A stretch of DNA of 32,795 nucleotides from Bacteroidales bacterium (GTDB lineage: Bacteria; Bacteroidota; Bacteroidia; Bacteroidales; JAADGE01): the NCBI GenBank assembly GCA_029934265.1, contig JAOZMN010000001.1, forward strand, positions 1 through 32,795, read 5' to 3'. The translations under genes were made by a program, and so were the position numbers. This document shows, piece by piece, positions 12,869-25,564 of this stretch. Each line of letters opens with the position of its first letter. Within the stretch, counting starts at the first letter, position 1. The notes beneath the pieces are model-generated. The model saw nothing but the letters and a program-made list of their open reading frames with translations, was not told the origin of the DNA and did no database searches.

Positions 12869-15800
12869 TTAATATTCATCACTGCTTTTTATCGACAATT
12901 CATTAATATCTATTTTAATAAACGAATAAATAAAAGCACTTGCTAATCGTGCGTTTGTAATCAGCGGAACATTAAAATCTATCGCACTTCGGCGAATAGT
13001 GTAATCGTTGTTTAATTCTCCTTCGCTCAGGTTTTTGGGGATATTCACGACAAAATCCACAATTTTATTTTTGATTAATTCCAAACAGTTCGGAGTTTTA
13101 TTTTCATCGGGCCAATATGCTGTTTTTACTTCGATATTATTTTCACGCAAAAAATTAGCCGTGCCGGGAGTTGCATAAAGTTCAAGACCTTTTTCCTGCA
13201 TCATTCTACTGCTGTTTATCAACTCCATTTTGGAACGCACCGGACCGGTGGAAAGCAAAACGCCTTTTTTAGGAATTTTATAACCTACCGACAGCATGGC
13301 TTTAAGAATTGCATCGTAATAACTGTCTCCAATACAGCCGACTTCGCCGGTGGAAGACATATCGACACCCAAAACAGGGTCGGCTTTTGCCAAGCGTGAA
13401 AATGAAAATTGAGAGGCTTTTATCCCGATATGGTCTAAATCGAAAATAGATTTTTGCGGAATTTCATAATCAACTTCAAGCATTACTTTTGTTGCAAGTT
13501 CTATTAAGTTTGTTTTCAGGACTTTCGACACAAAAGGCATACTTCGAGATGCTCTTACATTACACTCGATAACTTTAATATCGTTGTCTTTTGCAAGAAA
13601 TTGCATATTAAAAGGACCGCTTATTTGCAATGCTTGGGCAATTTGTTTTCCGATTTTTTTAATTCTTCTTATCGTTTCAAAATACAATTTTTGAGGCGGA
13701 AACACCATAGTTGCATCACCGGAATGAACGCCGGCAAATTCGATATGCTCCGAAAGTGCATAAGTTATCATTTTTCCCTTATCGGAAACAGCATCAATCT
13801 CAATTTCTTTAGCATTTTCGATAAATTCGCTTACAACTACCGGATATTGTTTTGAAACTTTTGCCGCCATCAGCAAAAAATGTTCTAATTCCGATTTATT
13901 GGAAACCACGTTCATAGCCGCACCGGAAAGCACGTAAGACGGTCGGACAAGTACCGGGAATCCGACTTCTTCCACGAAAACGTTTATGTCTTCTATGCTC
14001 GTGAGTTCCTTCCATCGAGGCTGGTCGATATTGAGCCGGTCGAGCATTGCAGAAAATTTTTGTCTGTTTTCTGCTCCGTCTATATTTTCGGGTGAAGTTC
14101 CGAGTATTTTAATTCCTTGTGTGTGAAGACGTACCGATAAATTGTTAGGTATCTGACCGCCCACCGAAACTATAACTCCTTTGGGATTTTCGAGTTCTAT
14201 AATATCCAAAACTCGTTCGAGTGTTAATTCATCAAAATATAATAAATCACATACATCGTAGTCGGTGCTTACGGTTTCGGGATTGTAATTTATTACTATC
14301 GAGCGGTAGCCCGATTTATTTACTGTGTTCAAAGCATTTACCGTACACCAGTCAAACTCTACACTGCTGCCAATTCGATACGCACCCGAACCAAGCACTA
14401 CAACAGATTTTCCGTCATTTGCAAATTCTACATCATGCTCAGTTCCGGAATAAGTAAGATACAAATAATTTGTTTGTGCAGGGTATTCTGCCGCAAGTGT
14501 ATCTATCTGTTTTACAAAGGGTAATATGTTTTTTGATTTTCGATATTTTCTTACTTTCAATAAACTTTCGGAAATATCGTTTTCATCGGATTTCAACACA
14601 AAACGAGCTATCTGAAAATCAGAAAAACCTCTTATTTTGGCTTCTTTAAGAAGTTCTGTATGTAGATTTTCAATTTTATTGAAAGAAATAAGTTTTGTAT
14701 GAATATCGAAAATATTTTTCAGTTTTTCGAGAAACCAACGGTCGATTTTTGTAAGCTCGTAAATTTGTTCTACCGTATAGCCTTCGTTAAAAGCGTTTGC
14801 GATAGAAAAAATACGCATATCGGTCGGATTTGTCAATTCTTTTTCAACATCTGCAAAGTCCAAATCTCTGTTTCCTACGAAGCCGTGCATTCCTTGCCCT
14901 ATCATTCGCAAGCCTTTTTGTATTGCCTCTTCAAAGTTTTTTCCGATAGCCATAACTTCGCCTACGCTTTTCATACTGCTTCCTATTTCTTTGGAAACTC
15001 CGTTGAATTTATTCAAATCCCAACGAGGAATTTTACAGACAACATAATCGAGTGCCGGCTCAAAAAACGCCGGTGTAGTTTTCGTTACCGAGTTTTTAAT
15101 TTGATGAAGTCCGTAACCCAAACCAAGTTTTGCGGCAACAAAAGCAAGCGGATAACCTGTTGCCTTAGAAGCCAATGCACTTGAGCGTGAAAGTCTTGCA
15201 TTAACTTCAATAACTCTGTAATCTTCAGAATACGGGTCGAGAGCATACTGCACATTGCACTCTCCGACAACGCCAAGCCTGCGAATAATTTTTATCGCCA
15301 ATGCTCTAAGTTTATGATATTCACTGTTTGTAAGAGTTTGCGAAGGAGCTATAACTATACTTTCGCCTGTATGTATTCCGAGCGGATCGAAATTTTCCAT
15401 ATTACAGACTGTTATACAATTATCGTATTTGTCTCTGACAACTTCGTATTCTACTTCTTTCCAGCCTTTTATGGACTCTTCTACAATTATTTGATTTGAA
15501 AAAGAAAGTGCATTTGCCGCCGTTTTTTCTAATTCGTCATCATTGTTACAAAAACCGCTTCCTTGTCCGCCAAGCGTAAATGCTGCACGGATTATAAGCG
15601 GATAGCCAAGTTTGCCGGCGGCTTTTCTTGCATCTTCGATATTTGTAACAGCAATACTTTGCGGTGTTTTTACATCAATTTCTCTAAGGATATTTGCAAA
15701 AACTTCACGGTCTTCGGTATCCATAATGGTTTGCACAGGCGTTCCGAGAACTTCGATTTTATATTTATCGAAAATGCCGGTTTGATACAATTCTACTCCG

Positions 15801-16114
15801 CAATTTAAAGCGGTCTGACCGCCGAAAGCAAGTAAAATTCCTTCCGGTTTTTCTTTTTTGATGACTTCTTCAACAAAATGCGGTGTTACCGGCAGAAAAT
15901 AAACTTTATCGGCAATGTCTTCGCTTGTCTGCACCGTTGCAATATTCGGATTTATAAGAACGGTTTTTATACCTTCTTCTTTTAAGGCTTTCAAAGCCTG
16001 CGAACCTGAATAATCAAACTCTCCGGCTTCACCGATTTTTAAAGCTCCGGAGCCTAATATTAATACTTTTTTCGGAAGATTTTTTAATGTGGATTTATAT
16101 GTTGAGTTTTTCAT
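12869..16114 (-). CDS. carB: Carbamoyl-phosphate synthase large subunit
   Basis: 1081 aa with duplicated ATP-grasp halves (ILGSGALKIGEAGEFDYSGSQA... and VLGSGAYRIGSSVEFDWC...) and an MGS-like C-terminal domain. Confidence 0.95.
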   Translation of the reverse strand: MKNSTYKSTLKNLPKKVLILGSGALKIGEAGEFDYSGSQALKALKEEGIKTVLINPNIATVQTSEDIADKVYFLPVTPHFVEEVIKKEKPEGILLAFGGQTALNCGVELYQTGIFDKYKIEVLGTPVQTIMDTEDREVFANILREIDVKTPQSIAVTNIEDARKAAGKLGYPLIIRAAFTLGGQGSGFCNNDDELEKTAANALSFSNQIIVEESIKGWKEVEYEVVRDKYDNCITVCNMENFDPLGIHTGESIVIAPSQTLTNSEYHKLRALAIKIIRRLGVVGECNVQYALDPYSEDYRVIEVNARLSRSSALASKATGYPLAFVAAKLGLGYGLHQIKNSVTKTTPAFFEPALDYVVCKIPRWDLNKFNGVSKEIGSSMKSVGEVMAIGKNFEEAIQKGLRMIGQGMHGFVGNRDLDFADVEKELTNPTDMRIFSIANAFNEGYTVEQIYELTKIDRWFLEKLKNIFDIHTKLISFNKIENLHTELLKEAKIRGFSDFQIARFVLKSDENDISESLLKVRKYRKSKNILPFVKQIDTLAAEYPAQTNYLYLTYSGTEHDVEFANDGKSVVVLGSGAYRIGSSVEFDWCTVNALNTVNKSGYRSIVINYNPETVSTDYDVCDLLYFDELTLERVLDIIELENPKGVIVSVGGQIPNNLSVRLHTQGIKILGTSPENIDGAENRQKFSAMLDRLNIDQPRWKELTSIEDINVFVEEVGFPVLVRPSYVLSGAAMNVVSNKSELEHFLLMAAKVSKQYPVVVSEFIENAKEIEIDAVSDKGKMITYALSEHIEFAGVHSGDATMVFPPQKLYFETIRRIKKIGKQIAQALQISGPFNMQFLAKDNDIKVIECNVRASRSMPFVSKVLKTNLIELATKVMLEVDYEIPQKSIFDLDHIGIKASQFSFSRLAKADPVLGVDMSSTGEVGCIGDSYYDAILKAMLSVGYKIPKKGVLLSTGPVRSKMELINSSRMMQEKGLELYATPGTANFLRENNIEVKTAYWPDENKTPNCLELIKNKIVDFVVNIPKNLSEGELNNDYTIRRSAIDFNVPLITNARLASAFIYSFIKIDINELSIKSSDEY

Positions 16115-16182
16115 TTTTCTATATTTTAAAATTTCAGGTTTACAATGTATTTAACTGATAAAACGTAGATACATAAAGGAAA

Positions 16183-16800
16183 TTAGATTGTTATACTTTT
16201 ATTAATTTGTTCAATTATGTCATCTCTTACTATTTTTAATCTTTTCTTACTGTTAGTTTCACTTCCTTCTGGTAATTCATTATTTTTTATACTGTTTAAA
16301 CCTTGTGGTCCTAAATGTCTTCTTATTCTAATAAATTTAGCATTAATACTTAATTTTTCTTCAATAAGCCCAGCTTTATTTCCAAAAAGTATTACATATT
16401 GGTTAATATCTTTGAGTTCATTATATAATCGTTTAATATTACCACGAGCTTCAATGTCTTTATTGCTTGCTTCACTTTTGTTATCTCTATCTCTATATAA
16501 AGGTTTCGGATAAGCATTTGTTATTCTATACTTATACCTGTTAATTCTAAGCTTGTTCTCTTGACTTATATTAGGACTTTCAGGAAAAAGTTTATTTTTG
16601 GGACTTTCTAATAATTTGATTAATTCTTCCAAGTTTGCTCCAGTATCACCGACAACAGGCTTGTTATCTCCATTATACAATTCGAGTCTTCCGGGTGCAC
16701 TAAATACAAAAGCGACTTCCTTGTATTCACCCTCATTGTAATAACAGCAATTTTTTCTTATTGGTTCTTTCATAATACTTGATTTAATTTTATATTCCAT
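16183..16800 (-). CDS. Divergent uracil-DNA-glycosylase-superfamily protein (family-4-like motifs, no Fe-S cysteines)
   Basis: AFVFSAPGRLELYNGDNKPVVGDTGANLEELIKLL versus the family-4 pattern GEAPGxxEDxxGxPFVGxAGxLL. YRITNAYPKP versus ITNxVKCRPP. YVILFGNKAG versus the central LG strand. RRHLGPQGLN versus HPSPL-type motif B. The internal ATG at 16773 overlaps the upstream stop as ATGA and may be the real start (196 aa). Confidence 0.6.
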   Translation of the reverse strand: MEYKIKSSIMKEPIRKNCCYYNEGEYKEVAFVFSAPGRLELYNGDNKPVVGDTGANLEELIKLLESPKNKLFPESPNISQENKLRINRYKYRITNAYPKPLYRDRDNKSEASNKDIEARGNIKRLYNELKDINQYVILFGNKAGLIEEKLSINAKFIRIRRHLGPQGLNSIKNNELPEGSETNSKKRLKIVRDDIIEQINKSITI

Positions 16801-17186
16801 TCTGTTAGTTCAAATCCATATTTATTAAATAAATTTAATTCTACAGGTGTTAATAAAATAATAATTTCTCTGTATGTAGCCATAAATATTTTTTTATTAT
16901 CAGCTTGAATAATAAAAGCAGGACAAGTAAATTCATTTATCAATGTATCTTTCCAGTCTTTTTCAATAATATTGTAGATGTAGTCATTAAATTTATAATG
17001 ATAACACAAATACATTTCTTTTTCAGTTACTAAGAATGGTTTTTGAGATATAGATGTTTTATAGGATTTTATATTTCCAAAAATGGAATTGTCAAATGTT
17101 GATTTTGTTATATCTATTTCTCTTGTTGGTATCATATCGACTACGATTATTTCATCACCTGTGTTTTTAATATAGGCAATAAACAT
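16770..17186 (-). CDS. Hypothetical protein with no recognisable family (upstream partner of the UDG-like gene)
   Basis: The ORF spans 16770-17225 from a TTG; the first ATG is at 17186 (MFIAYIKNTGDEIIVVD...). It is on the same strand as carA/carB. Its stop TGA (16770-16772) overlaps an in-frame ATG of the next gene. No motif recognised. Confidence 0.5.
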   Translation of the reverse strand: MFIAYIKNTGDEIIVVDMIPTREIDITKSTFDNSIFGNIKSYKTSISQKPFLVTEKEMYLCYHYKFNDYIYNIIEKDWKDTLINEFTCPAFIIQADNKKIFMATYREIIILLTPVELNLFNKYGFELTEWNIKLNQVL

Positions 17187-17251
17187 ATTCCAAACTTTTT
17201 CAATATCTAAGCCGGAAAAAAACAAATTTTCTGATATGTAATATTTTTTAT

Positions 17252-18337
17252 TTATTTTTTATTTTTTTCTACCATTTCAATAAAATCATCAAACAAAAAC
17301 ATTGTATCTGTCGGACCTCCGGTTGCTTCGGGGTGAAATTGTGTTGAAAAAAACGGTTTTGTTTTATGTTTCATTCCTTCGTTTGTATCATCGTTCAGAT
17401 TTACAAACAACGGTTGCCAATCTTCGGAAAGTGTATCGTTGTCGATAGCAAAACCGTGGTTTTGAGAACTGATATACGCTTTATTCGTATTGCAAAGCAA
17501 AACCGGCTGATTATGACTTCGATGTCCGTATTTAAGTTTGTAGCTTTTTGCTCCCGAAGCCAATGCCATAAGCTGATTGCCAAGACAAATTCCGAAAATA
17601 GGTGTATCTTTTTCTATCACTTTCGATAAATTATTTATGGTTGCTTCGCATTTTACAGGGTCGCCGGGACCGTTGGTTATAAAAAGTCCGTCATATTCTT
17701 CTTTTGTAAAATCATAATCCCAGGGAACACGTATTACTGTTGAATTTCTTGCAGTTAATTCTCTTATAATGTTGTTCTTAACACCACAATCGACAAGCAT
17801 TATTTTATTTTTGCCTGTTCCGTAAGTTATAATTTCTTTTGTGCTGACTTGTGCTACAAGATTATCTTTATTAGGGTCATAAAAATCGGTATCCTGTTCG
17901 TTTACAATGATTTTGCCAAGCATTGTACCTTTTTCACGCAGTATTTTTGTTAAAGCTCTTGTATCTATAGCATAAATTCCGGGTATTTTGTTGGTTTTAA
18001 GCCAATTATCAAGACTTTCATTTGCGTTCCAATGGCTGTATTCATACGAATAGTCGGAAATAACCAAGCCTGATATTTGTATTTTATCGGATTCAAAATC
18101 GGTAAGAAGTTTATCTTCTGTTTTTTTCTTGGGAATACCGTAGTTGCCTATAAGCGGATAAGTCGCCACAAGTATCTGACCTTTATAAGAGGGGTCTGTA
18201 AGACTTTCCGGATAGCCTGTCATTGCGGTATTAAATACAACTTCGCCGGCGGAGCTTCCTGCATATCCAAATGATTTTCCCTTTAAAATAGTTCCGTCTT
18301 CAAGGACTAATTTTGCTGTTTTATTCATGCTTTTCAT
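17252..18337 (-). CDS. carA: Carbamoyl-phosphate synthase small (glutamine amidotransferase) subunit
   Basis: 361 aa. LVLEDGTILKGKSFG, FNTAMTGYPESLTDPSY, GICLGNQL (catalytic Cys), FSTQFHPEA. Confidence 0.95.
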   Translation of the reverse strand: MKSMNKTAKLVLEDGTILKGKSFGYAGSSAGEVVFNTAMTGYPESLTDPSYKGQILVATYPLIGNYGIPKKKTEDKLLTDFESDKIQISGLVISDYSYEYSHWNANESLDNWLKTNKIPGIYAIDTRALTKILREKGTMLGKIIVNEQDTDFYDPNKDNLVAQVSTKEIITYGTGKNKIMLVDCGVKNNIIRELTARNSTVIRVPWDYDFTKEEYDGLFITNGPGDPVKCEATINNLSKVIEKDTPIFGICLGNQLMALASGAKSYKLKYGHRSHNQPVLLCNTNKAYISSQNHGFAIDNDTLSEDWQPLFVNLNDDTNEGMKHKTKPFFSTQFHPEATGGPTDTMFLFDDFIEMVEKNKK

Positions 18338-18556
18338 TTTTTCTGCAAAGATAAAAATAACAATGAATAAAATGAATATCTTTTAAAATTTATGTATAAT
18401 TATTCAAAAAATATATAAATACATGGTTGGCTTATTTATAACTTCACAACCTAACAGACTGTAATCACTGACAAATAATAAAATTATCACAACACCGACA
18501 CTATGTATAATTATACAGTCATTTTACCTGTATCAAAAAAATATTATACTTTGTAT

Positions 18557-18687
18557 GAGTTCAGTCTAAAAAGTAGATTTTCTCGAAATCAGACCCTTAG
18601 GGTTTTAAGTAATAAGCTATAAATCAAATATTTAGATTTGTTAAATTTTATTAAATCAAACCCTAAGGGTCTTTTTATACCGAACTC
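18557..18687 (+). mobile_element. Family A MITE-like element, copy 6
   Basis: Exactly 131 bp. A perfect 6-bp direct repeat TTGTAT lies at 18551-18556 and 18688-18693. Confidence 0.9.
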
Positions 18688-19112
18688 TTGTATTAAATTT
18701 CAATACAATCCTATGAAAACAAAATCACAAATCGACAGTCAAAAATAGCAAATCACTTGTACTGATTTATTATTTTTCAATAAATCTACAAATCTAAATA
18801 TGTTGTATAATATGTTTATTTATTTCAATATTATAAAACGCTAAATTACAGCACATAGGAACGTAAGCATTAGACCCAAATCACGAATTATGACTCAAAT
18901 CATTAAAAGATGTGCTATAGAACACACATCTATATTTTTAAATATTCTATTTTTGTGAAATAGTATTGCAAATTAGAGTCTGATATATAAATATTTATAT
19001 ATTTAGTTTTTTTACCTTAAAATATGTCAAAAATCTTAATTACGGAAGTTGCAATATTAAATGTGTAAAAGTATTATAAAAAGGTCAGTTAAGCCAAATT
19101 AATAATGATAAG

Positions 19113-21362
19113 ATGAAAACCAACAGACGAGAATTTATTAAAATATCATCAATGGGAATGGGAGCTTTAGCCTTAGCAACAACACCTGTTCTTGGTTGGG
19201 TACCCGGTTTTTTAAAAGATGACTACACAAATCCGGACGATTCAAAAGCAAAGCGTTATGCAAACTATTGTGAAGTATGCTTTTGGAATTGTGCAGGTTG
19301 GGTATATACCGATGAAAAAGATAAAATTTGGAAAATAATCGGTAACGAAGACGACCCTCACAGCAACGGACGTTTTTGCCCTCGAGGAACCGGCGGAGTG
19401 GGAATGTATAACGACAACGACCGACTTAAAACTCCGCTTAAACGTGTAACAGACGAATCCGGCAAACAAACTTTCGTTAAAATTTCTTGGGAAGAAGCAT
19501 TTGATACCATTGCAGAAAAAATGACCGAAATTAAAGATAATTACGGTTCTGAAAGTTTTGCATTATTCAAACACGGTTCAAGCGGTAAACATTTTGCACA
19601 ACTATTAAAGGCTTACGGTTCCAAAAACATTGCAGCTCCGGCTTATGCTCAATGTAAAGGTCCCAGAGAAGAAGCATTTAAAGTTACATTCGGGCACCCG
19701 CTTCACTCACCCGAACCTCTCGACATCAGAGATACAAAATGTTTAGTACTTATAGGCTCTCATCTTGGCGAAAATATGCACAACGGACAAGTTCAAGAAA
19801 TGTCCGAAGCTATTGGGAAAGGTGTAAATATTATTACGGTTGACCCTCGTTTTTCAACTGTTGCAAGCAAATCTAAATTTTGGTTACCGATAAAACCGGC
19901 AACTGACCTTGCATTATTATTGGCTTGGATACACGTAATAATAAATGAAGAAATATACGACCAAAAATATGTCGAAAAATATACTTTCGGATTAGAATCG
20001 CTGAAAAAACACGTTGAAAATTACACTCCGGAATGGGCTGCGGGAATTACAACGCTTTCGGCACAAGACATAAGAGATACTGCCAAAGAAATGGCAAACG
20101 CTTCTCCGGCAGTAATAGTACATCCGGGACGACACGTTACTTGGTACGGAGATGACACCCAACGTTTGAGAGCCGTTGCAATACTTAACGCTTTACTTGG
20201 TTCGTGGGGACGAAGAGGCGGATTTTTCATGCCGGAAAAAGCAAAATTACCTAAATATCCCGAACCCAAAGCTCCAAAACCAAAATGGTCTTGGAGAGAC
20301 ATTTCTCCCGGTAAATATCCACTTGCAGGAACCGGTGTTACAAACTTATTAATAGACGCTTCGCACCCGGATTACGAAGGAGACCATAAAATAAAAGCAT
20401 GGTTTATAGCCGGAACAAATTTAATCGCAAGTATTCCGGATATAAAAAGAACACTTGATGCTCTTAATAATCAAGAATTTGTAGTAGTCGTAGATACAAT
20501 GCCGGCTGAAATAACCGGTTATGCAGATATAGTTCTGCCGGAATGTACATATCTTGAAAGATATGACAGTCCGAGACTTGCACAACACAGAGAGCCGAAT
20601 ATTGCTCTTCGAGTTCCTGCCGCCGAACCACGATTTGATTCAAAACCGGGCTGGTGGATATGCAAAGAAATTGCAACAAGAATAGGAAAAGGAGACTTTT
20701 TCGATTATAAAGACTTTTCGGAAGTTATCGACTGGCAACTCAAACAAGTAGGCACATCTCTTGAAGAGATGAAAAAAATCGGAGTTAAAAAATTAAACAG
20801 AAAATATGACGATTTATATTTCCTTGAAGATGAAGAAATAGAATTTCATACAAATACAGGAAAAATAGAATTGTATTCAACAACAATGGAAGCAAACGGT
20901 TTCGACCCGATGCCAAAATATACAGCACATCAAGAATCTTCGGAAGGATTTTACAGATTGATATACGGAAGGACGCCGGCTCATACTTTCAGCAGAACAA
21001 CCAACAACCCTAACTTAACAGCACTTAAAGCCGAAAACGATTTATGGGTAAATCCGAAAGTTGCATCGGAATGGGGTTTTAAAAACGGACAAAAACTTTG
21101 GTTACAAAATCATCAAGGTAAAGTTTCCGAGTTTCCGATAAAAATCAGAATAACCGAAAGAATACGTTGGGACTCAGTATTTACCGCTCACGGTTTCGGA
21201 CGAACCGACAAAAGACTCACAAGAGGATACGGGCGAGGAATAAGTGATTCGGAAATGGTATCCGATGTAAAAATAGATAAGGAAACAGGAAGTACGGGAA
21301 TGAGAAATAATTTTGTTACATTTCTGACAGAAAAACCGAATACAGCAAAAAAAGAAAGCTAA
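19113..21362 (+). CDS. Tat-exported molybdopterin oxidoreductase catalytic subunit, PsrA/PhsA (polysulfide/thiosulfate reductase)-like
   Basis: 749 aa. Twin-arginine signal NRREFIKISSMGMGALALA. N-terminal Fe-S motif CEVCFWNCAG...(x27)...CPRG. Bis-MGD family architecture. DmsB-type and NrfD-type subunits follow. Substrate is not determinable from sequence. Confidence 0.8.
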   Translation: MKTNRREFIKISSMGMGALALATTPVLGWVPGFLKDDYTNPDDSKAKRYANYCEVCFWNCAGWVYTDEKDKIWKIIGNEDDPHSNGRFCPRGTGGVGMYNDNDRLKTPLKRVTDESGKQTFVKISWEEAFDTIAEKMTEIKDNYGSESFALFKHGSSGKHFAQLLKAYGSKNIAAPAYAQCKGPREEAFKVTFGHPLHSPEPLDIRDTKCLVLIGSHLGENMHNGQVQEMSEAIGKGVNIITVDPRFSTVASKSKFWLPIKPATDLALLLAWIHVIINEEIYDQKYVEKYTFGLESLKKHVENYTPEWAAGITTLSAQDIRDTAKEMANASPAVIVHPGRHVTWYGDDTQRLRAVAILNALLGSWGRRGGFFMPEKAKLPKYPEPKAPKPKWSWRDISPGKYPLAGTGVTNLLIDASHPDYEGDHKIKAWFIAGTNLIASIPDIKRTLDALNNQEFVVVVDTMPAEITGYADIVLPECTYLERYDSPRLAQHREPNIALRVPAAEPRFDSKPGWWICKEIATRIGKGDFFDYKDFSEVIDWQLKQVGTSLEEMKKIGVKKLNRKYDDLYFLEDEEIEFHTNTGKIELYSTTMEANGFDPMPKYTAHQESSEGFYRLIYGRTPAHTFSRTTNNPNLTALKAENDLWVNPKVASEWGFKNGQKLWLQNHQGKVSEFPIKIRITERIRWDSVFTAHGFGRTDKRLTRGYGRGISDSEMVSDVKIDKETGSTGMRNNFVTFLTEKPNTAKKES

Positions 21363-21460
21363 GGTCTTCGACCTGTTTAATATTGCTTACACACTCGTGC
21401 AAATATTTATAAATAAGTAAATGTATATTTTTTTTGTAAGAGTACTTTTTCAAAAATTCC
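21360..21460 (+). repeat. Family B intercistronic element, copy B2
   Basis: It starts with the psrA-like stop codon: TAAGGTCTTCGACCTGTTTAATATTGC...GTGCAAAT...AATAAGTAAATGTATATTTTTTTTGTAAGAGTACTT. The first 27 nt are nearly identical to B1. Confidence 0.7.
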
Positions 21461-21513
21461 TTAAAGTGAATTAAAAAAAAGCAGAAGTCGATTAATTCAA
21501 AATTTAGAATAAT

Positions 21514-22047
21514 ATGAGATACGGAATGGCAATAGATACAAGAAAATGCGTTGGTTGTGCAGACTGCGTAGTGGCTTGTCAGACTGAAAACAATATACCC
21601 ATAGGCTACACCAGAGATTGGATAGCGGAACTTAATGAAGGCACATATCCGAATCTTCATCTCGAAATACGCTCCGAACGATGTAACCATTGCGAAAACA
21701 CCCCTTGTGTACGAACCTGCCCTACCGGAGCAAGTCATATCATTTTGGGAGGTATAGTAAAAGTTACACATGAAGAATGTATCGGTTGCGGGGCGTGTAT
21801 TCAGTCATGTCCTTACGATGCCAGATATATGCACCCCGATGGTTATGTCGATAAATGTACATTCTGCGACCACAGAGTTGCAAACGGACAAGAACCGGCC
21901 TGCGTATCGGTCTGCCCGACACATTGTATGTATTTCGGTGATTTAGACGACCCAAACAGTGAAGTCTCAAAAGTTGTTGCTGCAAATAAAATAAAAACTC
22001 TGGCTCCGGAAGCCGGAACAAAACCTCAAATTTTTTATTTGGTATAA
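21514..22047 (+). CDS. 4Fe-4S dicluster electron-transfer subunit (PsrB/DmsB type, four cluster motifs)
   Basis: 177 aa. CVGCADCVVAC, CNHCENTPCVRTCP, CIGCGACIQSCP, CTFCDHRV...ACVSVCP. Confidence 0.85.
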   Translation: MRYGMAIDTRKCVGCADCVVACQTENNIPIGYTRDWIAELNEGTYPNLHLEIRSERCNHCENTPCVRTCPTGASHIILGGIVKVTHEECIGCGACIQSCPYDARYMHPDGYVDKCTFCDHRVANGQEPACVSVCPTHCMYFGDLDDPNSEVSKVVAANKIKTLAPEAGTKPQIFYLV

Positions 22048-22135
22048 GCACAAGAACTTACGAAATTTTATATTTTTTCGATTTAATAAAAACATTTCGG
22101 CGTAAGCCGGTTATCAATTATCAATTTATATCGTT

Positions 22136-23155
22136 ATGAGAGAAGAATTAATAACAAGTGGCAGAATGAACTTGAATATCGACCCTGTTTTGCACATTTG
22201 GCACTGGCAAATCCCTGTATATTTATTTCTTGGCGGTCTTGCGGCAGGTTTACTTTTTTTTGCGGCATACTATACAATAATAGGAAAAGAAAAAAAATTC
22301 ACTACAGCCGTAAAATTTGCTCCGGTATTAGCTCCGGTAGCAATTATTCTCGGACTTATAGCACTTTTACTCGACCTTAAACACCCTGCGTATTTCTGGC
22401 AACTATATACAACAGTGCATTTAGAATCTCCGATGTCATGGGGTGCTTGGGTACTAATGTTTATAATGCCTATATCTATGTTGTGGGTAGCTTCTTATTT
22501 TAAAGAAATTTTCCCTAAATTCGATATAAACCAAAATATCGTAGGGAAAATGCTGAAAAAAGTAATCGTTAAAAATGACAATAAAGAAGGTGCAAACTGG
22601 GACTGGAAATTTGAAATTATACGAAAATTTGAAATTAATTTCATCAAAAACAGAAAACCGGTAGCATGGGTAATGCTTATTCTTGCAGTAATTCTCGGAG
22701 TTTATACCGGAATATTACTTTCGGCATTTAATGCACGACCGTTATGGAACTCTTCAATACTCGGACCATTATTTTTAACTTCCGGACTTTCAACTGCGGC
22801 GGCAACAATTATGTGGATGTCCGATAATCACGAAGAAAAACGTACTTTCAGCAAAATAGATTTAATGCTTATTGTAATTGAACTGTTTTTAATAACACAC
22901 TTATTTATGGGATTCTTAGCAGGTTCAGAAGCAAAAGTACAAGCCGCTCAATATTTTCTCGGAGGTGAATTTACCGTTACTTTTTGGATAAATGTTGTAA
23001 TTATCGGTTTGATAGTTCCTGCAATACTTGAAACACTTGAACTTTTAAAATTCAAATTACCGGTAATGGTACCTGCTGCAATGATATTATGGGGTGGCAT
23101 GATATTCCGCTTTATAATGGTAGAAGCCGGACAAGTAACTCGTTTTCTATATTAA
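22136..23155 (+). CDS. NrfD/PsrC-type integral-membrane quinol-interacting subunit
   Basis: 339 aa with about 8-9 hydrophobic helices. It has the WxWxIPxYLFLGG-like opening (WHWQIPVYLFLGGLAAG) typical of the NrfD family, and follows the A and B subunits. Confidence 0.8.
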   Translation: MREELITSGRMNLNIDPVLHIWHWQIPVYLFLGGLAAGLLFFAAYYTIIGKEKKFTTAVKFAPVLAPVAIILGLIALLLDLKHPAYFWQLYTTVHLESPMSWGAWVLMFIMPISMLWVASYFKEIFPKFDINQNIVGKMLKKVIVKNDNKEGANWDWKFEIIRKFEINFIKNRKPVAWVMLILAVILGVYTGILLSAFNARPLWNSSILGPLFLTSGLSTAAATIMWMSDNHEEKRTFSKIDLMLIVIELFLITHLFMGFLAGSEAKVQAAQYFLGGEFTVTFWINVVIIGLIVPAILETLELLKFKLPVMVPAAMILWGGMIFRFIMVEAGQVTRFLY

Positions 23156-23275
23156 GGTCTTTAACCTTTTTAATAAGGCAAAGCCATGTTTATAAATCAT
23201 TAATAATTAAAAAGTTACACAAGATATAATGTGTAAAGACTTTTATAAAGGTACTTAATTAAAAAAAATTAACCG
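23153..23275 (+). repeat. Family B intercistronic element, copy B3
   Basis: It starts with the psrC-like stop: TAAGGTCTTTAACCTTTTTAATAAGGCAAAGCC...AATGTGTAAAGACTTTTATAAAGGTACTTAATTA. It ends a few nt before the ATG at 23276. By eye it is roughly 80% identical to B4. Confidence 0.7.
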
Positions 23276-23794
23276 ATGGAAAATAAAAAAAAGTATATGA
23301 ATCCCTACCTTGCCGGTGTTTTACTGGGAATGTTAATTATAATTTCATTCATTTTAACTCGTGAAGGTTTGGGAGCGAGCGGTGCTTTTAAAAGAACTGC
23401 GGCAAAAATAGAACAAGCTGTAGCTCCCGGATATATCAACAATCCGGATACATATTTTCATAAATATGTCAAAAACGGGAAAGAGCCTTTAAACAACAGA
23501 TTAGTATTTATGATAATCGGCGTTTTTGTAGGGGGTTTTTTATCAGGTGCTGTTAACAGAAGACTGAAATTAAAAATTGAACATTCTCCTAAGATTACAA
23601 AAAAAACAAGAGGGATTGCTGCATTAATCGGCGGAATATTATTCGGAATAGGAGCATCGTTCGGTAGAGGTTGTACGAGCGGAGCCGGACTCGACGGAAT
23701 GGCTGTTATGGCAACTTCAGGTTTTATTGTAGTAGCGGCAATTTTCGGTGGAGGCTACTTATTTGCTTATTTTGTCAGGAAATTATGGATATAA
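23276..23794 (+). CDS. YeeE/YedE-family sulfur-transport membrane protein (half-size, first of pair)
   Basis: 172 aa and polytopic, with the conserved GRGCTSGAG motif of the sulphur-transport (YeeE/YedE) family. Confidence 0.7.
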   Translation: MENKKKYMNPYLAGVLLGMLIIISFILTREGLGASGAFKRTAAKIEQAVAPGYINNPDTYFHKYVKNGKEPLNNRLVFMIIGVFVGGFLSGAVNRRLKLKIEHSPKITKKTRGIAALIGGILFGIGASFGRGCTSGAGLDGMAVMATSGFIVVAAIFGGGYLFAYFVRKLWI

Positions 23795-23811
23795 AAGGGA
23801 TTGATGATTTG

Positions 23812-23859
23812 TGATTGTATATTTATGATTTTGCTTTCGCATGATTAATAAAATTTTTA
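23812..23859 (+). repeat. Family C 48-bp repeat, copy C2
   Basis: TGATTGTATATTTATGATTTTGCTTTCGCATGATTAATAAAATTTTTA is about 44/48 identical to C1. Confidence 0.7.
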
Positions 23860-23876
23860 CCGGCTAAGTCAGATTT

Positions 23877-23985
23877 TAAGGTCGTTGACCTTTTTAATAT
23901 GGCAAAGCCATATTAGAAAATCATTAATAATTAAAACGTTACACAAAGTACAATGTGGGAAAACTTTTGTAAGACTACTTACAAT
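23877..23985 (+). repeat. Family B element, copy B4 (not attached to a stop codon)
   Basis: TAAGGTCGTTGACCTTTTTAATATGGCAAAGCCATATTAG...CATTAATAATTAAAACGTTACACAAAGTACAATGTGGGAAAACTTTTGTAAGACTACTT. Confidence 0.65.
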
Positions 23986-24119
23986 ATCTTAAAGTCATAA
24001 TAGTTAATTACAAAAATACAGTATAATTTTTTTTGTAACAATGGTTAATCTAAGAGCTTAGAACCGACAAACAGATAATTATAAATTCCCGTTAAATTCG
24101 GGTTAAATAAAAAATAAAA

Positions 24120-24716
24120 ATGGGACCTTTTTTTACTTCAGGAGATGAATTCAGCTATGTTATAGCTTTAATAATAGGTATAGGTTTTGGTTTTGTACTC
24201 GAATCCGGAGGCTTTTCAACTTCAAAAAAACTTGCCGGAGTATTTTACGGATATGATTTTACCGTTATCAGAGTATTTTTTACGGCTGCCATAACAGCGG
24301 CTATAGGACTTTTTTACTTTGACTACCTCGGCTGGGTTGATTTCTCGGCATTGTATATAAATAAATTTTTTATCGGCTCAAGCATAGTAGGAGGTCTTAT
24401 AATGGGACTCGGGTTTGTTATCGGAGGATATTGTCCGGGGACAAGTGCTTGTGCGGTAGGCATAGGTAAAATTGATGCCATGATATACCTTGCCGGCGTG
24501 ATTATCGGAGCAATGATATTCGATTTATTTTATCCCCTTTACGGAAGTTTTTACAAAAGCGGGAATATGGGTGCATCTTCAATATACGAACTGCTCGGAA
24601 TGTCCAAAGAATTATTTTTATTGATTTTTGTAGTATTTGCCGCCGTTACTTTTTATTTTACGACCGGCTTACAGCATAAAATAACAAAAAAAATGAATAA
24701 AAAAAATGAGCAATGA
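24120..24716 (+). CDS. YeeE/YedE-family sulfur-transport membrane protein (second of pair)
   Basis: 198 aa and polytopic, with a GGYCPGTSAC motif at the position of the conserved Cys of the YeeE/YedE family. Confidence 0.65.
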   Translation: MGPFFTSGDEFSYVIALIIGIGFGFVLESGGFSTSKKLAGVFYGYDFTVIRVFFTAAITAAIGLFYFDYLGWVDFSALYINKFFIGSSIVGGLIMGLGFVIGGYCPGTSACAVGIGKIDAMIYLAGVIIGAMIFDLFYPLYGSFYKSGNMGASSIYELLGMSKELFLLIFVVFAAVTFYFTTGLQHKITKKMNKKNEQ

Positions 24717-24764
24717 ACAATAAATAATGAACAATTTTAAAACTATAATTTCAAATTTGTAAAA

Positions 24765-25427
24765 ATGGAAGAAGTAAAACAATCAAAAAAAAGATATATT
24801 TTAGTATCCGTAATTTTCATACTACTTGCTTTATTGCTGTTTTTATTGCCGGAAAAATATGATTTAAAACAAAAACAAGTTTGGGAACTTCTACGAGAAC
24901 TAAACAGTAATACAAGGTTTGTTACAACGGATTATGTTGCTCAAAAAATAATTAACAAAGAGCCTGCTTATAAATTGATAGACGTTAGAAATGAAAATGA
25001 TTTTAAAACATTTTCATTACCCGGAGCAATAAATATACCTATCAAAAACATACTCGATAAAGACAAAAAAGGAAAATACAAATATGAAGATATTCTTAAA
25101 AACGATGAAAATACCATTAATATTTTCTATTCAAACGGAACTATATATGCAAATCAAACCTTACTTATACTAAGCAGAATGAATTACAAAAATAATTATG
25201 TAATGAAGGGTGGTTTGAACAAATGGTTTGAAACAATTATAAATCCACGCAAACCGCAAAAAACGGCAGCCGAAAGTAAACACATACTATACAGAAATAG
25301 AAAAGCTTACAGTATATTTTTTACCGGAGGAGGAGTACAAAGCGAAACATCACCGGAAACGCCAAGTCAAACACCTAAAGTTGCACCAAAAAAAGAAAGT
25401 CCGAAAGAAGACGAGGGAGGCTGTTGA
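24765..25427 (+). CDS. Membrane-anchored rhodanese-homology-domain protein with C-terminal ...EDEGGC tail (catalytic-loop Cys apparently replaced by Ser)
   Basis: N-terminal anchor KKRYILVSVIFILLALLLFLL. Rhodanese pattern LIDVRNENDFKTFSLPGAINIP ... INIFYSNGTIYANQTLLILSRMNY..VMKGGLNKW. S/T/P/K-rich tail ending EDEGGC-stop. Confidence 0.7.
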   Translation: MEEVKQSKKRYILVSVIFILLALLLFLLPEKYDLKQKQVWELLRELNSNTRFVTTDYVAQKIINKEPAYKLIDVRNENDFKTFSLPGAINIPIKNILDKDKKGKYKYEDILKNDENTINIFYSNGTIYANQTLLILSRMNYKNNYVMKGGLNKWFETIINPRKPQKTAAESKHILYRNRKAYSIFFTGGGVQSETSPETPSQTPKVAPKKESPKEDEGGC

Positions 25428-25470
25428 TTTACGATTGATGATTTTGCTTAGTTGTATTGAAAATTAAAAT
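25425..25470 (+). repeat. Family C repeat, copy C4 (diverged; first 3 nt are the stop codon of the rhodanese gene)
   Basis: TGATTTACGATTGATGATTTTGCTTAGTTGTATTGAAAATTAAAAT aligns with C1-C3. Confidence 0.5.
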
Positions 25471-25520
25471 AATTTACAAAAATTTTTACACATTTACTTA
25501 TAATACTCTGAAAATTTTAA

Positions 25521-25560
25521 AAATCAAAATTTCAAAATTTCAAAACTTCAGAACTTCAAA
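25521..25560 (+). repeat. Five tandem octamers immediately upstream of the second rhodanese start codon
   Basis: AAATCAAA ATTTCAAA ATTTCAAA ACTTCAGA ACTTCAAA, then AATT and the ATG at 25565. Confidence 0.7.
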
Positions 25561-25564
25561 AATT

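What the first reader, a model, noticed from the sequence alone, without database searches (positions are those of the whole stretch)
16115..17251. CpG-depleted two-gene cassette wedged between carA and carB
carA (17252-18337) and carB (12869-16114) are on the same strand but are separated by 1137 bp carrying two extra same-strand ORFs. By hand count, 16183-17225 contains about 10 CpG dinucleotides in ~1040 bp. Flanking carB lines such as 13201-13380 carry 3-4 CpG per 60 nt, so the cassette is depleted roughly fivefold. Codon choice also shifts away from the CCG/TCG/ACG/CGG-rich usage seen in the flanking genes. An imperfect direct repeat brackets the insert: TTTTCTATAT at 16115-16124 and TTTTCTGATAT at 17227-17237. 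This is weak evidence in AT-rich DNA. Together these suggest a horizontally acquired insert that is probably co-transcribed with a housekeeping operon.
Basis: partly seen in the sequence, partly recalled or inferred. Interest (0 to 1): 0.8.

Follow-up and report, generated by a model that had tools for sequence, protein, structure and literature searches.

The report
Foreign glycosylase gene pair splitting carA–carB
A 1.1-kb piece of foreign DNA has landed exactly between two housekeeping genes (carA and carB) of a Bacteroidota bacterium. It carries a conserved pair of genes: a small acidic protein of an undescribed family and a divergent uracil-DNA-glycosylase-fold enzyme, which looks like a mobile DNA-surveillance, defence-type or toxin–antitoxin-like module.

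Summary
carA (17252-18337) and carB (12869-16114) are split by 1137 bp carrying two same-strand genes. Region 16183-17225 has exactly 10 CpG (o/e 0.56, against 1.46 for the contig and 1.50 for carB), and it is the most deviant stretch of the contig.

In 69 of 80 related loci carB follows carA directly, usually within about 110 nt. None carries these genes, so this is an insertion.

The claimed flanking direct repeat is not a target-site duplication. One copy is ORF-A coding sequence and the other is the native carB leader.

- **ORF-B** is a basic, divergent UDG-superfamily protein with a family-4-like motif A (SAPG in place of GEAPG) and no Fe-S cysteines.
- **ORF-A** is not an orphan. It belongs to a rare family of acidic ~160-aa proteins with no Pfam or structural match.

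An ORF-A homologue sits directly upstream of a UDG-fold gene, overlapping it or a few to 17 nt away, in six independent contexts. These involve three mutually unalignable UDG subfamilies, often near IS elements, HipBA or nucleotide-metabolism genes.

The best reading is a horizontally acquired two-gene glycosylase module riding on the carAB transcript. A defence-type (Brig-like) or toxin–antitoxin-like function is inferred, not shown. Here the ORF-A start codon is ATA, overlapping the carA stop.

The parts
17252..18337 (-). carA, the carbamoyl-phosphate synthase small subunit. It is a native host gene and its stop TAA is at 17254-17252.
   Evidence: Pfam CPSase_sm_chain 1.2e-53 and GATase 1.4e-50. 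It is 55-73% identical to carA of 80 genomes. CpG o/e is 1.29.
16770..17255 (-). ORF-A, a 161-codon acidic protein of an undescribed family that partners with UDG-fold genes. The codon aligned with the homologues' ATG is ATA (17255-17253), which overlaps the carA stop. The mechanically listed ORF starts at TTG 17225. The stop TGA is at 16772-16770.
   Evidence: Exhaustive phmmer found 18 homologues of about 160 aa. The alignment shows an N-terminal KYYIS motif that in the window is encoded upstream of the TTG. The 5' 30 nt are 25/30 identical to L088, with ATG changed to ATA. The AF2 model has pLDDT 91 and no Foldseek match in PDB or BFVD. No Pfam hit in any member. pI 4.5-5.5.
16183..16800 (-). 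ORF-B, a basic and divergent UDG-superfamily protein. The likely start is ATG 16773, which forms an ATGA overlap with the ORF-A stop and gives 196 aa. The alternative start is ATG 16800, giving 205 aa.
   Evidence: 10 homologues at 34-44% identity, of which 9 of 11 family members hit PF03167. The AF2 model has pLDDT 81, and the top PDB folds are UdgX/family-4 UDG, TDG and MUG (E 4e-5, TM 0.55). The profile against PDB aligns motif A to the S. tokodaii and T. maritima family-4 UDGs. pI 9.4.
16115..16182 (-). A 68-nt spacer between the ORF-B stop and the carB start. The last ~15-20 nt look like the native carA-carB spacer or carB leader.
   Evidence: Similar to spacers of relatives, for example L012 ...gaaaaatagaaaatc and L026 aaaataaaaaattacc. 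No significant RNA structure (z = -0.49). No terminator-like site.
12869..16114 (-). carB, the carbamoyl-phosphate synthase large subunit. It is a native host gene.
   Evidence: Pfam CPSase_L_D1/D2/D3, ATP-grasp and MGS. CpG o/e 1.50.
18346..18353 (-). Candidate Bacteroidetes-type -7 promoter box (TATCTTTG) just upstream of carA. It is the nearest such motif on the coding strand upstream of the cassette and carB.
   Evidence: The pattern scan finds no TAnnTTTG on the minus strand between here and carB. This is a consensus match only, not evidence of function.

Best explanation
A ~1.1-kb horizontally acquired two-gene module has been inserted precisely into the short carA-carB spacer of a Bacteroidota chromosome.

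The module encodes:
- ORF-A, a ~160-aa acidic protein of a rare, undescribed family. It has a confidently predicted alpha/beta fold with no known structural neighbour. Its invariant residues are aromatic or hydrophobic, which suggests a binding partner rather than an enzyme.
- ORF-B, a ~196-aa basic protein with the uracil-DNA-glycosylase fold. Motif A resembles family 4 but reads F-S-A-P-G instead of G-E-A-P-G. A YRITN Asn motif and a motif-B-like His are conserved, and there is no Fe-S cluster.

Shown:
- The two genes are a conserved, tightly juxtaposed pair that moves between genomes.
- ORF-A-family genes sit directly upstream of three unrelated UDG subfamilies.
- The cassette keeps a donor-like AT-rich, CpG-poor signature.

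Inferred:
- The cassette has no promoter or terminator of its own and is transcribed from the carA promoter.
- It is translated by coupling. The carA stop overlaps the ORF-A start position, and the ORF-A stop overlaps the ORF-B ATG.
- ORF-B flips out and excises a non-canonical or modified pyrimidine, creating abasic sites, as the Brig1/2/3 anti-phage glycosylases do.
- ORF-A binds and controls the glycosylase or assists it.
- Because the ORF-A start codon is ATA here, expression of the pair is probably low and depends on re-initiation after carA.
For: Insertion:
- carA is followed directly by carB in 69 of 80 related loci, and none has ORF-A or ORF-B.
- A different small gene (23S_rRNA_IVP) occupies the same spacer in L017 and L018, so the site is permissive.

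Foreign composition:
- Searches show the deviation from the contig.
- The cassette resembles the flanks of other carriers (delta* 0.084-0.100) more than its own contig (0.173).

Conserved pair, with an ORF-A homologue directly followed by a UDG-fold gene:
- L087.
- L088 and L089.
- L092, with PF03167 at 1.4e-9.
- L102-L107 on Mb-size contigs, with an ATGA overlap and PF03167 at 1.3e-8.
- The three UDG types do not align with each other.

UDG fold and motifs.

ORF-A: new fold or family, and acidic.

Mobile, defence or toxin-antitoxin neighbourhoods of homologues:
- HipBA plus IS transposases.
- IS66 TnpB, and WYL plus an AAA ATPase.
- A STAND NTPase plus AlbA_2.
- KfrA plus IS3, and RadC.
- An HD dGTPase-like gene, a MazG-like gene and a C5 DNA methylase.

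Precedent: UDG-superfamily glycosylases Brig1, Brig2 and Brig3 give anti-phage defence, sit in AT-rich horizontally transferred regions, and Brig3 works in a two-gene overlapping operon with BapA (PMC11078745; bioRxiv 10.1101/2025.10.29.685425; PMC13160076).

No internal promoter or terminator signals.
Against: - No biochemical or phage data exist for this family. The window's own ORF-B does not reach any Pfam or NCBIfam threshold (E 0.04-0.06 for family-4 models), and PADLOC finds nothing.
- The window is not a defence island. All neighbours are housekeeping genes and there is no integrase or transposase.
- More distant ORF-B relatives occur without ORF-A. Some ORF-A homologues have no UDG next to them (L090, L091, L093, L100). 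The partnership is therefore frequent but not obligatory.
- The ORF-A canonical start is lost (ATA), so the module may be poorly expressed or decaying here.
- Motif A lacks the acidic or amide residue used by characterised UDG families, so catalytic competence is unproven.
- Sequence relatedness to Brig1, Brig2 or Brig3 could not be tested because no sequences were at hand.
Confidence: 0.6

Rival explanations
1. Type II toxin-antitoxin-like addiction module. ORF-B is a toxic DNA glycosylase that removes normal or common bases. ORF-A is its acidic protein inhibitor (antitoxin), encoded upstream and translationally coupled. The pair persists and spreads as a selfish element that can sit inside operons.
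For: - Upstream acidic (pI 4.5-5.5) and downstream basic (pI 9-11) small proteins, with ATGA overlaps.
- Sporadic distribution next to HipBA and IS elements.
- ORF-A has no conserved catalytic-type residues.
- Insertion into a housekeeping operon without any mobility gene.
Against: - ORF-A has no recognisable DNA-binding (HTH/RHH) domain, which is typical of type II antitoxins.
- One conserved 'antitoxin' pairs with three unrelated UDG subfamilies. This is the opposite of the usual pattern of fast-evolving, cognate-specific antitoxins.
- ORF-B relatives exist alone.
- ORF-A has lost its ATG here while ORF-B is intact.
- ORF-A has no fold similarity to the known UDG inhibitors Ugi, p56 or SAUGI.
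Confidence: 0.2
2. Mismatch or deamination repair module linked to cytosine methylation. ORF-B would be a T:G/U:G (TDG/MUG-like) glycosylase that, with ORF-A, repairs deaminated 5-methylcytosine for a mobile methyltransferase system. The CpG depletion of the cassette would reflect a past life in CpG-methylating genomes.
For: - One ORF-A homologue lies 5 nt downstream of a C-5 cytosine DNA methylase (L100).
- TDG and MUG are among the ORF-B structural matches.
- The cassette and most homologous loci are CpG-poor, with o/e 0.45-0.85.
Against: - There is only one methylase association, and that locus shows no UDG gene before the contig ends.
- The window has no DNA methyltransferase near the cassette.
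- The CpG depletion is equally explained by a donor genome signature, since whole carrier contigs such as L104 and L089 have o/e of about 0.6.
Confidence: 0.08
3. Inactive remnant. The module was acquired but is decaying or silenced in this genome. ORF-A has lost its start codon, so it has no present function beyond spacing carA from carB.
For: - ATA replaces the family's ATG.
- The next in-frame starts (TTG 17225, ATG 17186) would delete predicted strand beta1, which carries the invariant Y5 and Y6.
- ORF-B translation appears coupled to ORF-A (ATGA overlap).
Against: - Both reading frames are intact over 161 and 196-205 codons in 23-28% GC DNA, where stop codons are frequent.
- All family-invariant residues are retained.
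- ATA overlapping the carA stop could still serve for termination-reinitiation. That is an inference from general knowledge of non-canonical starts.
- A single-base assembly error cannot be excluded.
Confidence: 0.12
4. Not foreign. These would be lineage-specific native genes whose odd composition merely reflects low expression or amino-acid content.
For: AT-rich non-coding stretches of the contig also have lowered CpG o/e, for example 18338-19112 at 0.78.
Against: - Recoding with host codon usage predicts 3-fold more CpG.
- No other gene on the contig is below o/e 1.10.
- The pair is absent from all 80 related loci but present in unrelated contexts elsewhere.
Confidence: 0.02

Closest known systems
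Brig3-BapA, together with Brig1 and Brig2: UDG-superfamily anti-phage DNA glycosylases (PMC13160076, PMC11078745, bioRxiv 10.1101/2025.10.29.685425)
   Same: - A UDG-fold protein far diverged from the repair UDGs. The nearest solved relatives are family-4-type UDGs, and the A1 profile's best PDB hit (4zbx, an S. tokodaii family-4 UDG) comes from the archaeon whose UDG the Brig1 paper names as its best structural match.
- It is encoded in AT-rich, horizontally moving DNA.
- Brig3 is in a two-gene operon with an overlapping accessory gene.
- Relatives lie near defence, toxin-antitoxin and transposase genes.
   Different: - Sequence relationship to Brig1, Brig2 or Brig3 was not testable here.
- The accessory gene is upstream rather than downstream. 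It is ~160 aa and acidic, has no ASCH-like beta-barrels and no conserved catalytic Asp, and has no structural neighbour.
- Motif A is FSAPG.
- The window locus is a housekeeping operon, not a defence island.
- No phage phenotype is known.
Family 4 uracil-DNA glycosylases and UdgX (PDB 4zbx, 1ui0/1ui1, 1vk2, 6ail)
   Same: - Overall fold (Foldseek E 4e-5, TM about 0.55).
- The motif A region aligns: FVGEAPGenEdkeGrPFvGaAG against FvFSaPGekEkkqgrPvaGdTG.
- A YxxTN-type Asn motif and a motif-B-like His are conserved.
   Different: - Glu/Gln of GE(A/Q)PG is replaced by Ser.
- Phe of the PF(V/I)G segment is replaced by Val, Ala or Leu.
- The four Fe-S cysteines are absent.
- Only 13-15% identity.
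- The distribution is sporadic and linked to mobile elements rather than housekeeping.
Type II toxin-antitoxin cassettes
   Same: Two small overlapping genes, acidic upstream and basic downstream. They are mobile, sit next to other toxin-antitoxin systems and IS elements, and can insert in operons.
   Different: There is no DNA-binding antitoxin domain. No UDG-fold toxin is known (a search for such a paper found none). The partner is more conserved than the enzyme.
Protein inhibitors of UDG (Ugi, p56, SAUGI)
   Same: A small acidic protein genetically tied to a UDG-fold enzyme.
   Different: There is no fold or sequence similarity. ORF-A is larger and only moderately acidic. Those inhibitors are phage- or SCCmec-encoded and are not paired with their target gene.

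Membership tests
UDG superfamily (Pfam PF03167 / CL0408-type fold) | Alpha/beta fold with a central parallel beta-sheet shared by UDG families 1-6 | tested here: met
   The AF2 model (pLDDT 81, pTM 0.82) gives Foldseek top hits that are all UdgX/family-4 UDG, TDG and MUG, with E down to 3.6e-5 and TM 0.55.
UDG superfamily (Pfam PF03167 / CL0408-type fold) | Significant match to the family HMM | tested here: inconclusive
   The window protein itself has no PF03167 hit. NCBIfam family-4 models reach only E 0.04-0.06. However, 9 of 11 family members match PF03167 at E up to 1, with the best at 3e-7. The family profile hits family-4 UDG 4zbx at E 0.002.
UDG superfamily (Pfam PF03167 / CL0408-type fold) | Motif A (G-x-x-P-G/Y type, carrying the water-activating or leaving-group residue) and motif B (His-containing loop) | tested here: inconclusive
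   Motif A is present in position but reads F-S-A-P-G, with Ser invariant. A nearly invariant His162 followed by G-L-N lies where motif B is expected. Residue roles were not verified structurally.
Family 4 UDG (UDGa) / UdgX | GE(A/G/Q)PG motif A | tested here: not met
   Ser replaces Glu in all 11 family members.
Family 4 UDG (UDGa) / UdgX | Four conserved cysteines binding a 4Fe-4S cluster | tested here: not met
   There is no conserved Cys column in alignment A1.
Brig-type anti-phage DNA glycosylases (Brig1/2/3) | UDG-fold glycosylase that excises a modified phage base and blocks phage replication | not testable with these tools
   The fold criterion is met. Activity and phage phenotype need experiments.
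Brig-type anti-phage DNA glycosylases (Brig1/2/3) | Sequence homology to Brig1, Brig2 or Brig3 | not tested
   No Brig sequences were available. The family motifs SAPG, YRITN and GDTG are absent from the supplementary text of the three papers, which is uninformative.
Brig-type anti-phage DNA glycosylases (Brig1/2/3) | Location in defence islands or mobile, AT-rich regions | tested here: inconclusive
   The window locus is AT-rich and foreign but sits in a housekeeping operon. Homologues lie near HipBA, IS elements, a STAND NTPase, AlbA_2, WYL, KfrA and RadC. PADLOC gives no hit.
Brig3-BapA two-gene system | Accessory ASCH-like double beta-barrel hydrolase encoded downstream of the glycosylase and overlapping it | tested here: not met
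   ORF-A is upstream, is ~160 aa, and has an alpha/beta model with no PDB or BFVD neighbour and no Pfam ASCH hit.
Type II toxin-antitoxin | Two small co-translated genes, with a labile acidic antitoxin upstream of a basic toxin | tested here: met
   pI 4.5-5.5 against 9-11. ATGA overlaps in the window and in L102-L107, and a 4-nt GTGA overlap to the longest (GTG-initiated) ORF in L089.
Type II toxin-antitoxin | Antitoxin with a DNA-binding domain; toxicity of the toxin neutralised by the antitoxin | tested here: not met
   No HTH, RHH or AbrB domain was found in any of 18 ORF-A members. Toxicity and neutralisation are not testable here.
Known UDG inhibitor proteins (Ugi, p56, SAUGI) | Fold or sequence similarity to a known inhibitor | tested here: not met
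   Foldseek against PDB gave no hit with E < 0.4. The profile against PDB sequences gave none.
Integron gene cassette | attC recombination site at the 3' end and an intI integrase with attI nearby | tested here: not met
   No integrase or transposase is on the 32.8-kb contig. The 68-nt 3' spacer has no significant hairpin (z = -0.49). Only a low-information GTTAAAT string is present, seen by eye.
Transposon / IS insertion | Terminal inverted repeats and a target-site duplication | tested here: not met
   No significant terminal inverted repeats were found. The proposed direct repeat is explained by coding sequence and the native leader.

The most novel reading that the evidence does not exclude
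The ORF-A family would be a dedicated, previously unrecognised partner of UDG-fold glycosylases. It would be a conserved acidic adaptor or regulator that is combined with interchangeable, rapidly diversifying UDG-fold effectors, with at least three subfamilies seen so far.

Together these would form a new two-component base-excision immunity or addiction system. The system is small and promoterless enough to parasitise core operons such as carAB. The CpG-poor signature of the cassettes could additionally reflect a link to cytosine-modification biology.
Probability: 0.35. Interest if true: 0.65.

Novelty: new variant of a known kind. Interest (0 to 1): 0.52.

Why it matters
Anti-phage DNA glycosylases of the UDG fold (Brig1-3) were recognised only in 2024-2026. 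Most were found as single genes, and one accessory protein (BapA) is known. This locus points to a rare, unannotated gene pair with these features:
- The partner has a new, confidently predicted fold, is conserved, and is attached to three different UDG subfamilies. That gives a concrete, cloneable two-gene candidate for a new glycosylase-based defence or toxin-antitoxin mechanism.
- Such modules can insert without any mobility gene into the middle of an essential biosynthetic operon and use its promoter. Defence-island-based searches would miss this location.
- The compositional contrast (CpG o/e 0.56 inside a 1.46 genome) is a clean example of an unameliorated transfer.

If the function turns out to be ordinary repair or the module is dead, the finding reduces to a tidy case of operon-internal horizontal transfer.

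Tried and rejected
- **Target-site duplication or transposon ends.** Rejected. The repeat is at chance level. One copy is ORF-A coding sequence conserved in L088, and the other is the native carB leader. There are no terminal inverted repeats.
- **ORF-A as an orphan gene.** The word-indexed search found only the protein itself. The exhaustive HMMER search then found 18 homologues.
- **Phage or plasmid origin.** There were no tblastn hits for ORF-A, ORF-B or two distant ORF-A homologues in 50,697 phage and 72,556 plasmid records. IMG/VR gave none either.
- **Known defence models.** PADLOC and PHROGs gave only noise.
- **RNA elements.** No Rfam family and no tRNA is on the contig. No structured RNA or terminator is in the 3' spacer.
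- **Sigma-70-type promoter scan.** Matches were fewer than in shuffles and uninformative for Bacteroidota. The full Bacteroidetes -33/-7 pattern occurs at chance level and not near the cassette.
- **Known UDG inhibitor or ASCH (BapA-like) fold for ORF-A.** Rejected by fold and profile searches.
- **Integron cassette.** There is no intI and no convincing attC.
- **Assembly chimera.** Unlikely, because both junctions are exact at the carA stop and the carB leader. It could not be tested with reads.
- **First alignment for locus search.** It was too diverse and was replaced by a six-sequence alignment.
- **Profile-profile comparison of the three UDG types.** No significant similarity.
Full report
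**1. The observation**

The window is a single 32,795-bp contig. Its carA and carB products most resemble those of Bacteroidales, Prolixibacteraceae and other Bacteroidota metagenome-assembled genomes. The best carA match is 73% identical, from 'Bacteroidetes bacterium 4572_117'.

Pfam confirms carA at 17252-18337(-) and carB at 12869-16114(-). The 1137 bp between them holds two same-strand ORFs, at 16770-17225 and 16183-16800.

CpG statistics counted by program:

| Region | CpG count | CpG per kb | o/e |
|---|---|---|---|
| 16183-17225 (1043 bp) | 10 | 9.6 | 0.56 |
| carB | 174 | 53.6 | 1.50 |
| carA | 45 | 41.4 | 1.29 |
| whole contig | 1271 | 38.8 | 1.46 |

- The five lowest of all 1043-bp windows all overlap the cassette.
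- Gene by gene, the two ORFs have o/e 0.49 and 0.60, against 1.10-1.94 for the other 25 genes. NCG codons are 1/48 against 7-35%, and GC3 is 0.17 against 0.20-0.35.
- This is not an amino-acid effect. The same two proteins recoded with host codon usage would carry 10.8±2.7 and 21.5±3.7 CpG, while 3 and 7 are observed (z = -2.9 and -4.0). Host genes lie at z = -0.7 to +5.9.
- The dinucleotide-signature distance of the cassette to the rest of the contig is 0.173, which exceeds all 294 other windows (mean 0.076, max 0.148). The tetranucleotide distance is in the top 2%.

The compositional claim is therefore confirmed.

**2. The claimed flanking repeat**

- The repeat finder does not report them.
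- The 11-mer pattern occurs about as often as in shuffled sequence.
- The left copy (17227-17237) encodes the family-conserved motif Y-I-S-E-N of ORF-A. Its DNA is 25/30 identical to the 5' end of the homologue in L088.
- The right copy (16115-16124) is the A-rich leader immediately before the carB ATG. It resembles the short carA-carB spacers of relatives such as L012 (...gaaaaatagaaaatc) and L026 (aaaataaaaaattacc).

**3. It is an insertion**

I fetched 80 loci encoding close relatives of this carA, using one genome per species.
- In 69 of them carB follows carA on the same strand.
- In 42 loci where stop and start could be placed automatically, the median gap is about 20 nt, with a range of about -50 to +111 nt.
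- The exceptions are two loci with about 490 nt and two parsing artefacts.
- None of the 80 loci encodes a relative of either cassette ORF (tblastn).
- The two loci with about 490 nt (L017 Prolixibacteraceae, L018 Draconibacterium) carry a different small gene in the same spacer, a PF05635 '23S rRNA-intervening-sequence' four-helix-bundle protein. The spacer is therefore a tolerated landing site.
- The rest of the window is ordinary chromosome: Dus, NadB-like, NadC, Rpe, HPPK, RlmH-type SPOUT, a HAD phosphatase, a Psr/Phs-like molybdopterin oxidoreductase operon, rhodaneses and polysaccharide genes. It has no integrase or transposase.

**4. ORF-B**

- The word-indexed search found ten homologues at 34-44% identity, all rare. 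Two carry a weak precomputed PF03167 hit.
- Scanned individually, 9 of 11 family members match PF03167 (best 3e-7). The window protein itself reaches only E 0.04-0.06 against NCBIfam family-4 UDG models.
- The family alignment has invariant polar residues typical of an enzyme: F-x-F-S-A-P-G-x-x-E...P-x-x-G-x-T-G-x-x-L, Y-R-I-T-N, an invariant Glu110, N-x-x-R, G-x-K-A and a nearly invariant His162.
- A profile search of PDB sequences aligns the first block to motif A of the family-4 UDGs of Sulfolobus tokodaii and Thermotoga: FVGEAPGenEdkeGrPFvGaAG against FvFSaPGekEkkqgrPvaGdTG.
- The AlphaFold2 model (pLDDT 81, pTM 0.82) matches UdgX and family-4 UDG, then TDG and MUG (E down to 3.6e-5, TM about 0.55, 13-15% identity).
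- ORF-B is therefore a UDG-superfamily protein, but it is not a family-4 member. The Glu of GE(A/G)PG is Ser, the Phe of the PF(V/I)G segment is Val/Ala/Leu, and there are no conserved Fe-S cysteines.
- The family is basic, with pI 9-11.
- By comparison with the homologues' N-termini and the ATGA overlap with the ORF-A stop, the likely start is ATG 16773 (M10 of the listed ORF).

**5. ORF-A**

- The word-indexed search returned only the protein itself. An exhaustive HMMER scan of 1.84 billion representatives found 18 homologues of about 160 aa at 23-48% identity.
- All homologues begin M-x-K-Y-Y-I-S/E. In the window the same motif (K-I-N-K-K-Y-Y-I-S-E-N) is encoded in frame upstream of the TTG that the ORF lister used.
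- The codon aligned with the homologues' ATG is ATA at 17255-17253, overlapping the carA stop TAA at 17254-17252. A single G-to-A change would convert an ATGA stop/start overlap into the present ATAA.
- The next in-frame starts would remove predicted strand beta1, which carries the invariant Tyr5 and Tyr6. ORF-A is therefore either initiated inefficiently at ATA by re-initiation after carA (an inference), or defective, or the base is an assembly error.
- The AF2 model is confident (pLDDT 91, pTM 0.86). It has no neighbour in PDB or BFVD (best E 0.4 and 0.16), no Pfam hit in any member and no PDB sequence relative.
- All members are acidic, with pI 4.5-5.5.
- The invariant residues are aromatic or hydrophobic plus one Gly and one Asn. 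This fits a binding protein better than an enzyme.

**6. The two genes are a conserved pair**

An ORF-A homologue is directly followed by a UDG-fold gene in five further independent contexts:

| Locus | Arrangement |
|---|---|
| L087 | 17-nt gap; UDG is 44% identical to ORF-B |
| L088 | 4-nt gap |
| L089 | 4-nt overlap (GTGA) to the longest, GTG-initiated ORF |
| L092 | 1-nt gap; a 259-aa PF03167 protein with an IIAQDP...PHPKAHS signature, E 1.4e-9 |
| L102-L107 | one locus seen on 18 contigs up to 3.8 Mb; ATGA overlap; a 202-aa PF03167 protein with VGDNPG...CHPSYG, E 1.3e-8 |

- The three UDG types do not align with one another by BLASTP or hhalign, whereas their ORF-A partners are 25-48% identical.
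- Given that a genome has only a few UDG-fold genes, six adjacencies cannot be chance.
- The partnership is not obligatory. Some ORF-A homologues sit next to other genes:
  - a convergent DUF429-like gene (L090);
  - an AAA ATPase with WYL and DnaB_C genes (L091);
  - IS66 TnpB (L093);
  - a C-5 cytosine DNA methylase (L100);
  - a MazG/PRA-PH-like pyrophosphohydrolase (L101);
  - an HD dGTPase-like gene, which precedes the pair in L088.
- More distant ORF-B relatives occur alone, near a STAND NTPase and AlbA_2 (L004), KfrA plus IS3 (L094), RadC (L096), or among ordinary genes (L001).
- In L102-L107 the pair lies beside a HipBA toxin-antitoxin and several IS transposases.
- Neither family was found in phage, plasmid or IMG/VR collections.

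**7. Source of the composition**

- Most homologous cassettes, and the contigs that carry them, are AT-rich and CpG-poor. Examples are L089 at o/e 0.57, L104 at 0.61 and L101 at 0.55.
- The window cassette's dinucleotide signature lies 0.084-0.100 from the flanks of L089, L104 and L088, which is about the within-genome level. It lies 0.173 from its own contig.
- The simplest explanation of the CpG depletion is an unameliorated donor signature, which implies a fairly recent transfer from a CpG-poor, low-GC lineage.

**8. How it most likely works**

Shown:
- A foreign, conserved, tightly juxtaposed gene pair sits precisely between carA and carB.
- Neither a terminator-like site nor a Bacteroidetes -7 box (TAnnTTTG) lies on the coding strand between the box at 18346-18353, just upstream of carA, and carB.
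- The 68-nt spacer before carB is unstructured.

Inferred:
- The pair is transcribed as part of the carAB message and translated by coupling.
- ORF-B excises a non-canonical pyrimidine, which is suggested by the conserved Asn of YRITN, the motif-B-like His and the loss of the stacking Phe. It thereby generates abasic sites.
- The acidic ORF-A binds the basic glycosylase as a regulator, inhibitor or adaptor.

Precedents:
- UDG-fold Brig1, Brig2 and Brig3 restrict phages with modified cytosines or thymidines. They are found in AT-rich, horizontally transferred DNA.
- In the case of Brig3, the glycosylase acts with an overlapping accessory gene, bapA (PMC11078745; bioRxiv 10.1101/2025.10.29.685425; PMC13160076).

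The arrangement here differs from those precedents. The accessory gene is upstream and non-enzymatic in appearance, has a new fold, and is shared among different UDG subfamilies.

A toxin-antitoxin-like reading (glycosylase toxin, acidic inhibitor) is the main rival. A link to cytosine methylation repair is a weaker one. The ATA start raises the possibility that the module is nearly silent here.

**9. Verdict**

What is new beyond that reading is that the 'extra ORF' belongs to a real, conserved partner family of UDG-fold proteins. The function remains inferred.

I rate the finding as a new variant of a known kind (UDG-fold mobile or defence glycosylases with an accessory gene). It is of moderate interest and directly testable.

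Noticed in passing
window 17250-17261 (- strand): The ORF-A codon aligned with the homologues' ATG is ATA (17255-17253), overlapping the carA stop TAA (17254-17252). One G-to-A change would turn an ATGA stop/start overlap into ATAA. The A-run GAAAAAAATAAAAAATAA also places ORF-A in the -1 frame directly after a TAA in that frame, so -1 slippage would fuse CarA to ORF-A. This is untested and thought unlikely.
   Followed up: partly
L017:7113-7472 and L018:7127-7543: In a Prolixibacteraceae and a Draconibacterium genome the same carA-carB spacer holds a different inserted gene, a PF05635 23S_rRNA_IVP four-helix-bundle protein. This indicates the spacer is a recurrent landing site for small genes.
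   Followed up: partly
L007:2872-9232 and L008:5980-7850: The two closest carA homologues (72-73% identity) are not followed by carB. In L007, carA is followed by a GNAT-like gene and an argG-like gene, which may mean an arginine-cluster carA paralogue.
   Followed up: no
window 1-32795: The contig as a whole has a marked CpG excess (o/e 1.46). It is concentrated at the codon position 3-1 boundary and in NCG codons. That excess is what makes the CpG-poor cassette stand out.
   Followed up: partly
window 18338-19112: A 775-bp, 23% GC intergenic region lies between divergently transcribed carA and a molybdopterin oxidoreductase gene. It has the second-lowest CpG o/e on the contig (0.78) and several TAnnTTTG boxes on both strands.
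   Followed up: no
window 19113-26227: A Psr/Phs-like operon (molybdopterin oxidoreductase, 4Fe-4S protein, NrfD) is followed by two half-size sulphur-transport genes and two rhodanese genes. This looks like a sulphur-compound respiration cluster.
   Followed up: no
L100:1-914; L101:176-1270; L088:3181-5353: ORF-A homologues also lie immediately downstream of a C-5 cytosine DNA methylase (L100) and of a MazG/PRA-PH-like pyrophosphohydrolase (L101). In L088 the pair follows an HD dGTPase-like gene. This suggests a wider link to nucleotide or DNA-modification biology.
   Followed up: partly
L102-L107 (for example L104:4741-8220): The ORF-A/UDG pair of a Mb-scale genome sits about 640 nt downstream of a HipB-HipA toxin-antitoxin pair and upstream of three IS (DDE_Tnp_1/DUF772) transposase genes. 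The called ORF-A product there (204 aa) has a probably spurious 42-aa N-terminal extension.
   Followed up: partly
window 16217-16513 (+): A 98-codon antisense ORF lies inside ORF-B. It is Leu/Ser/Phe-rich and is most likely a shadow ORF of the AT-rich coding strand.
   Followed up: no
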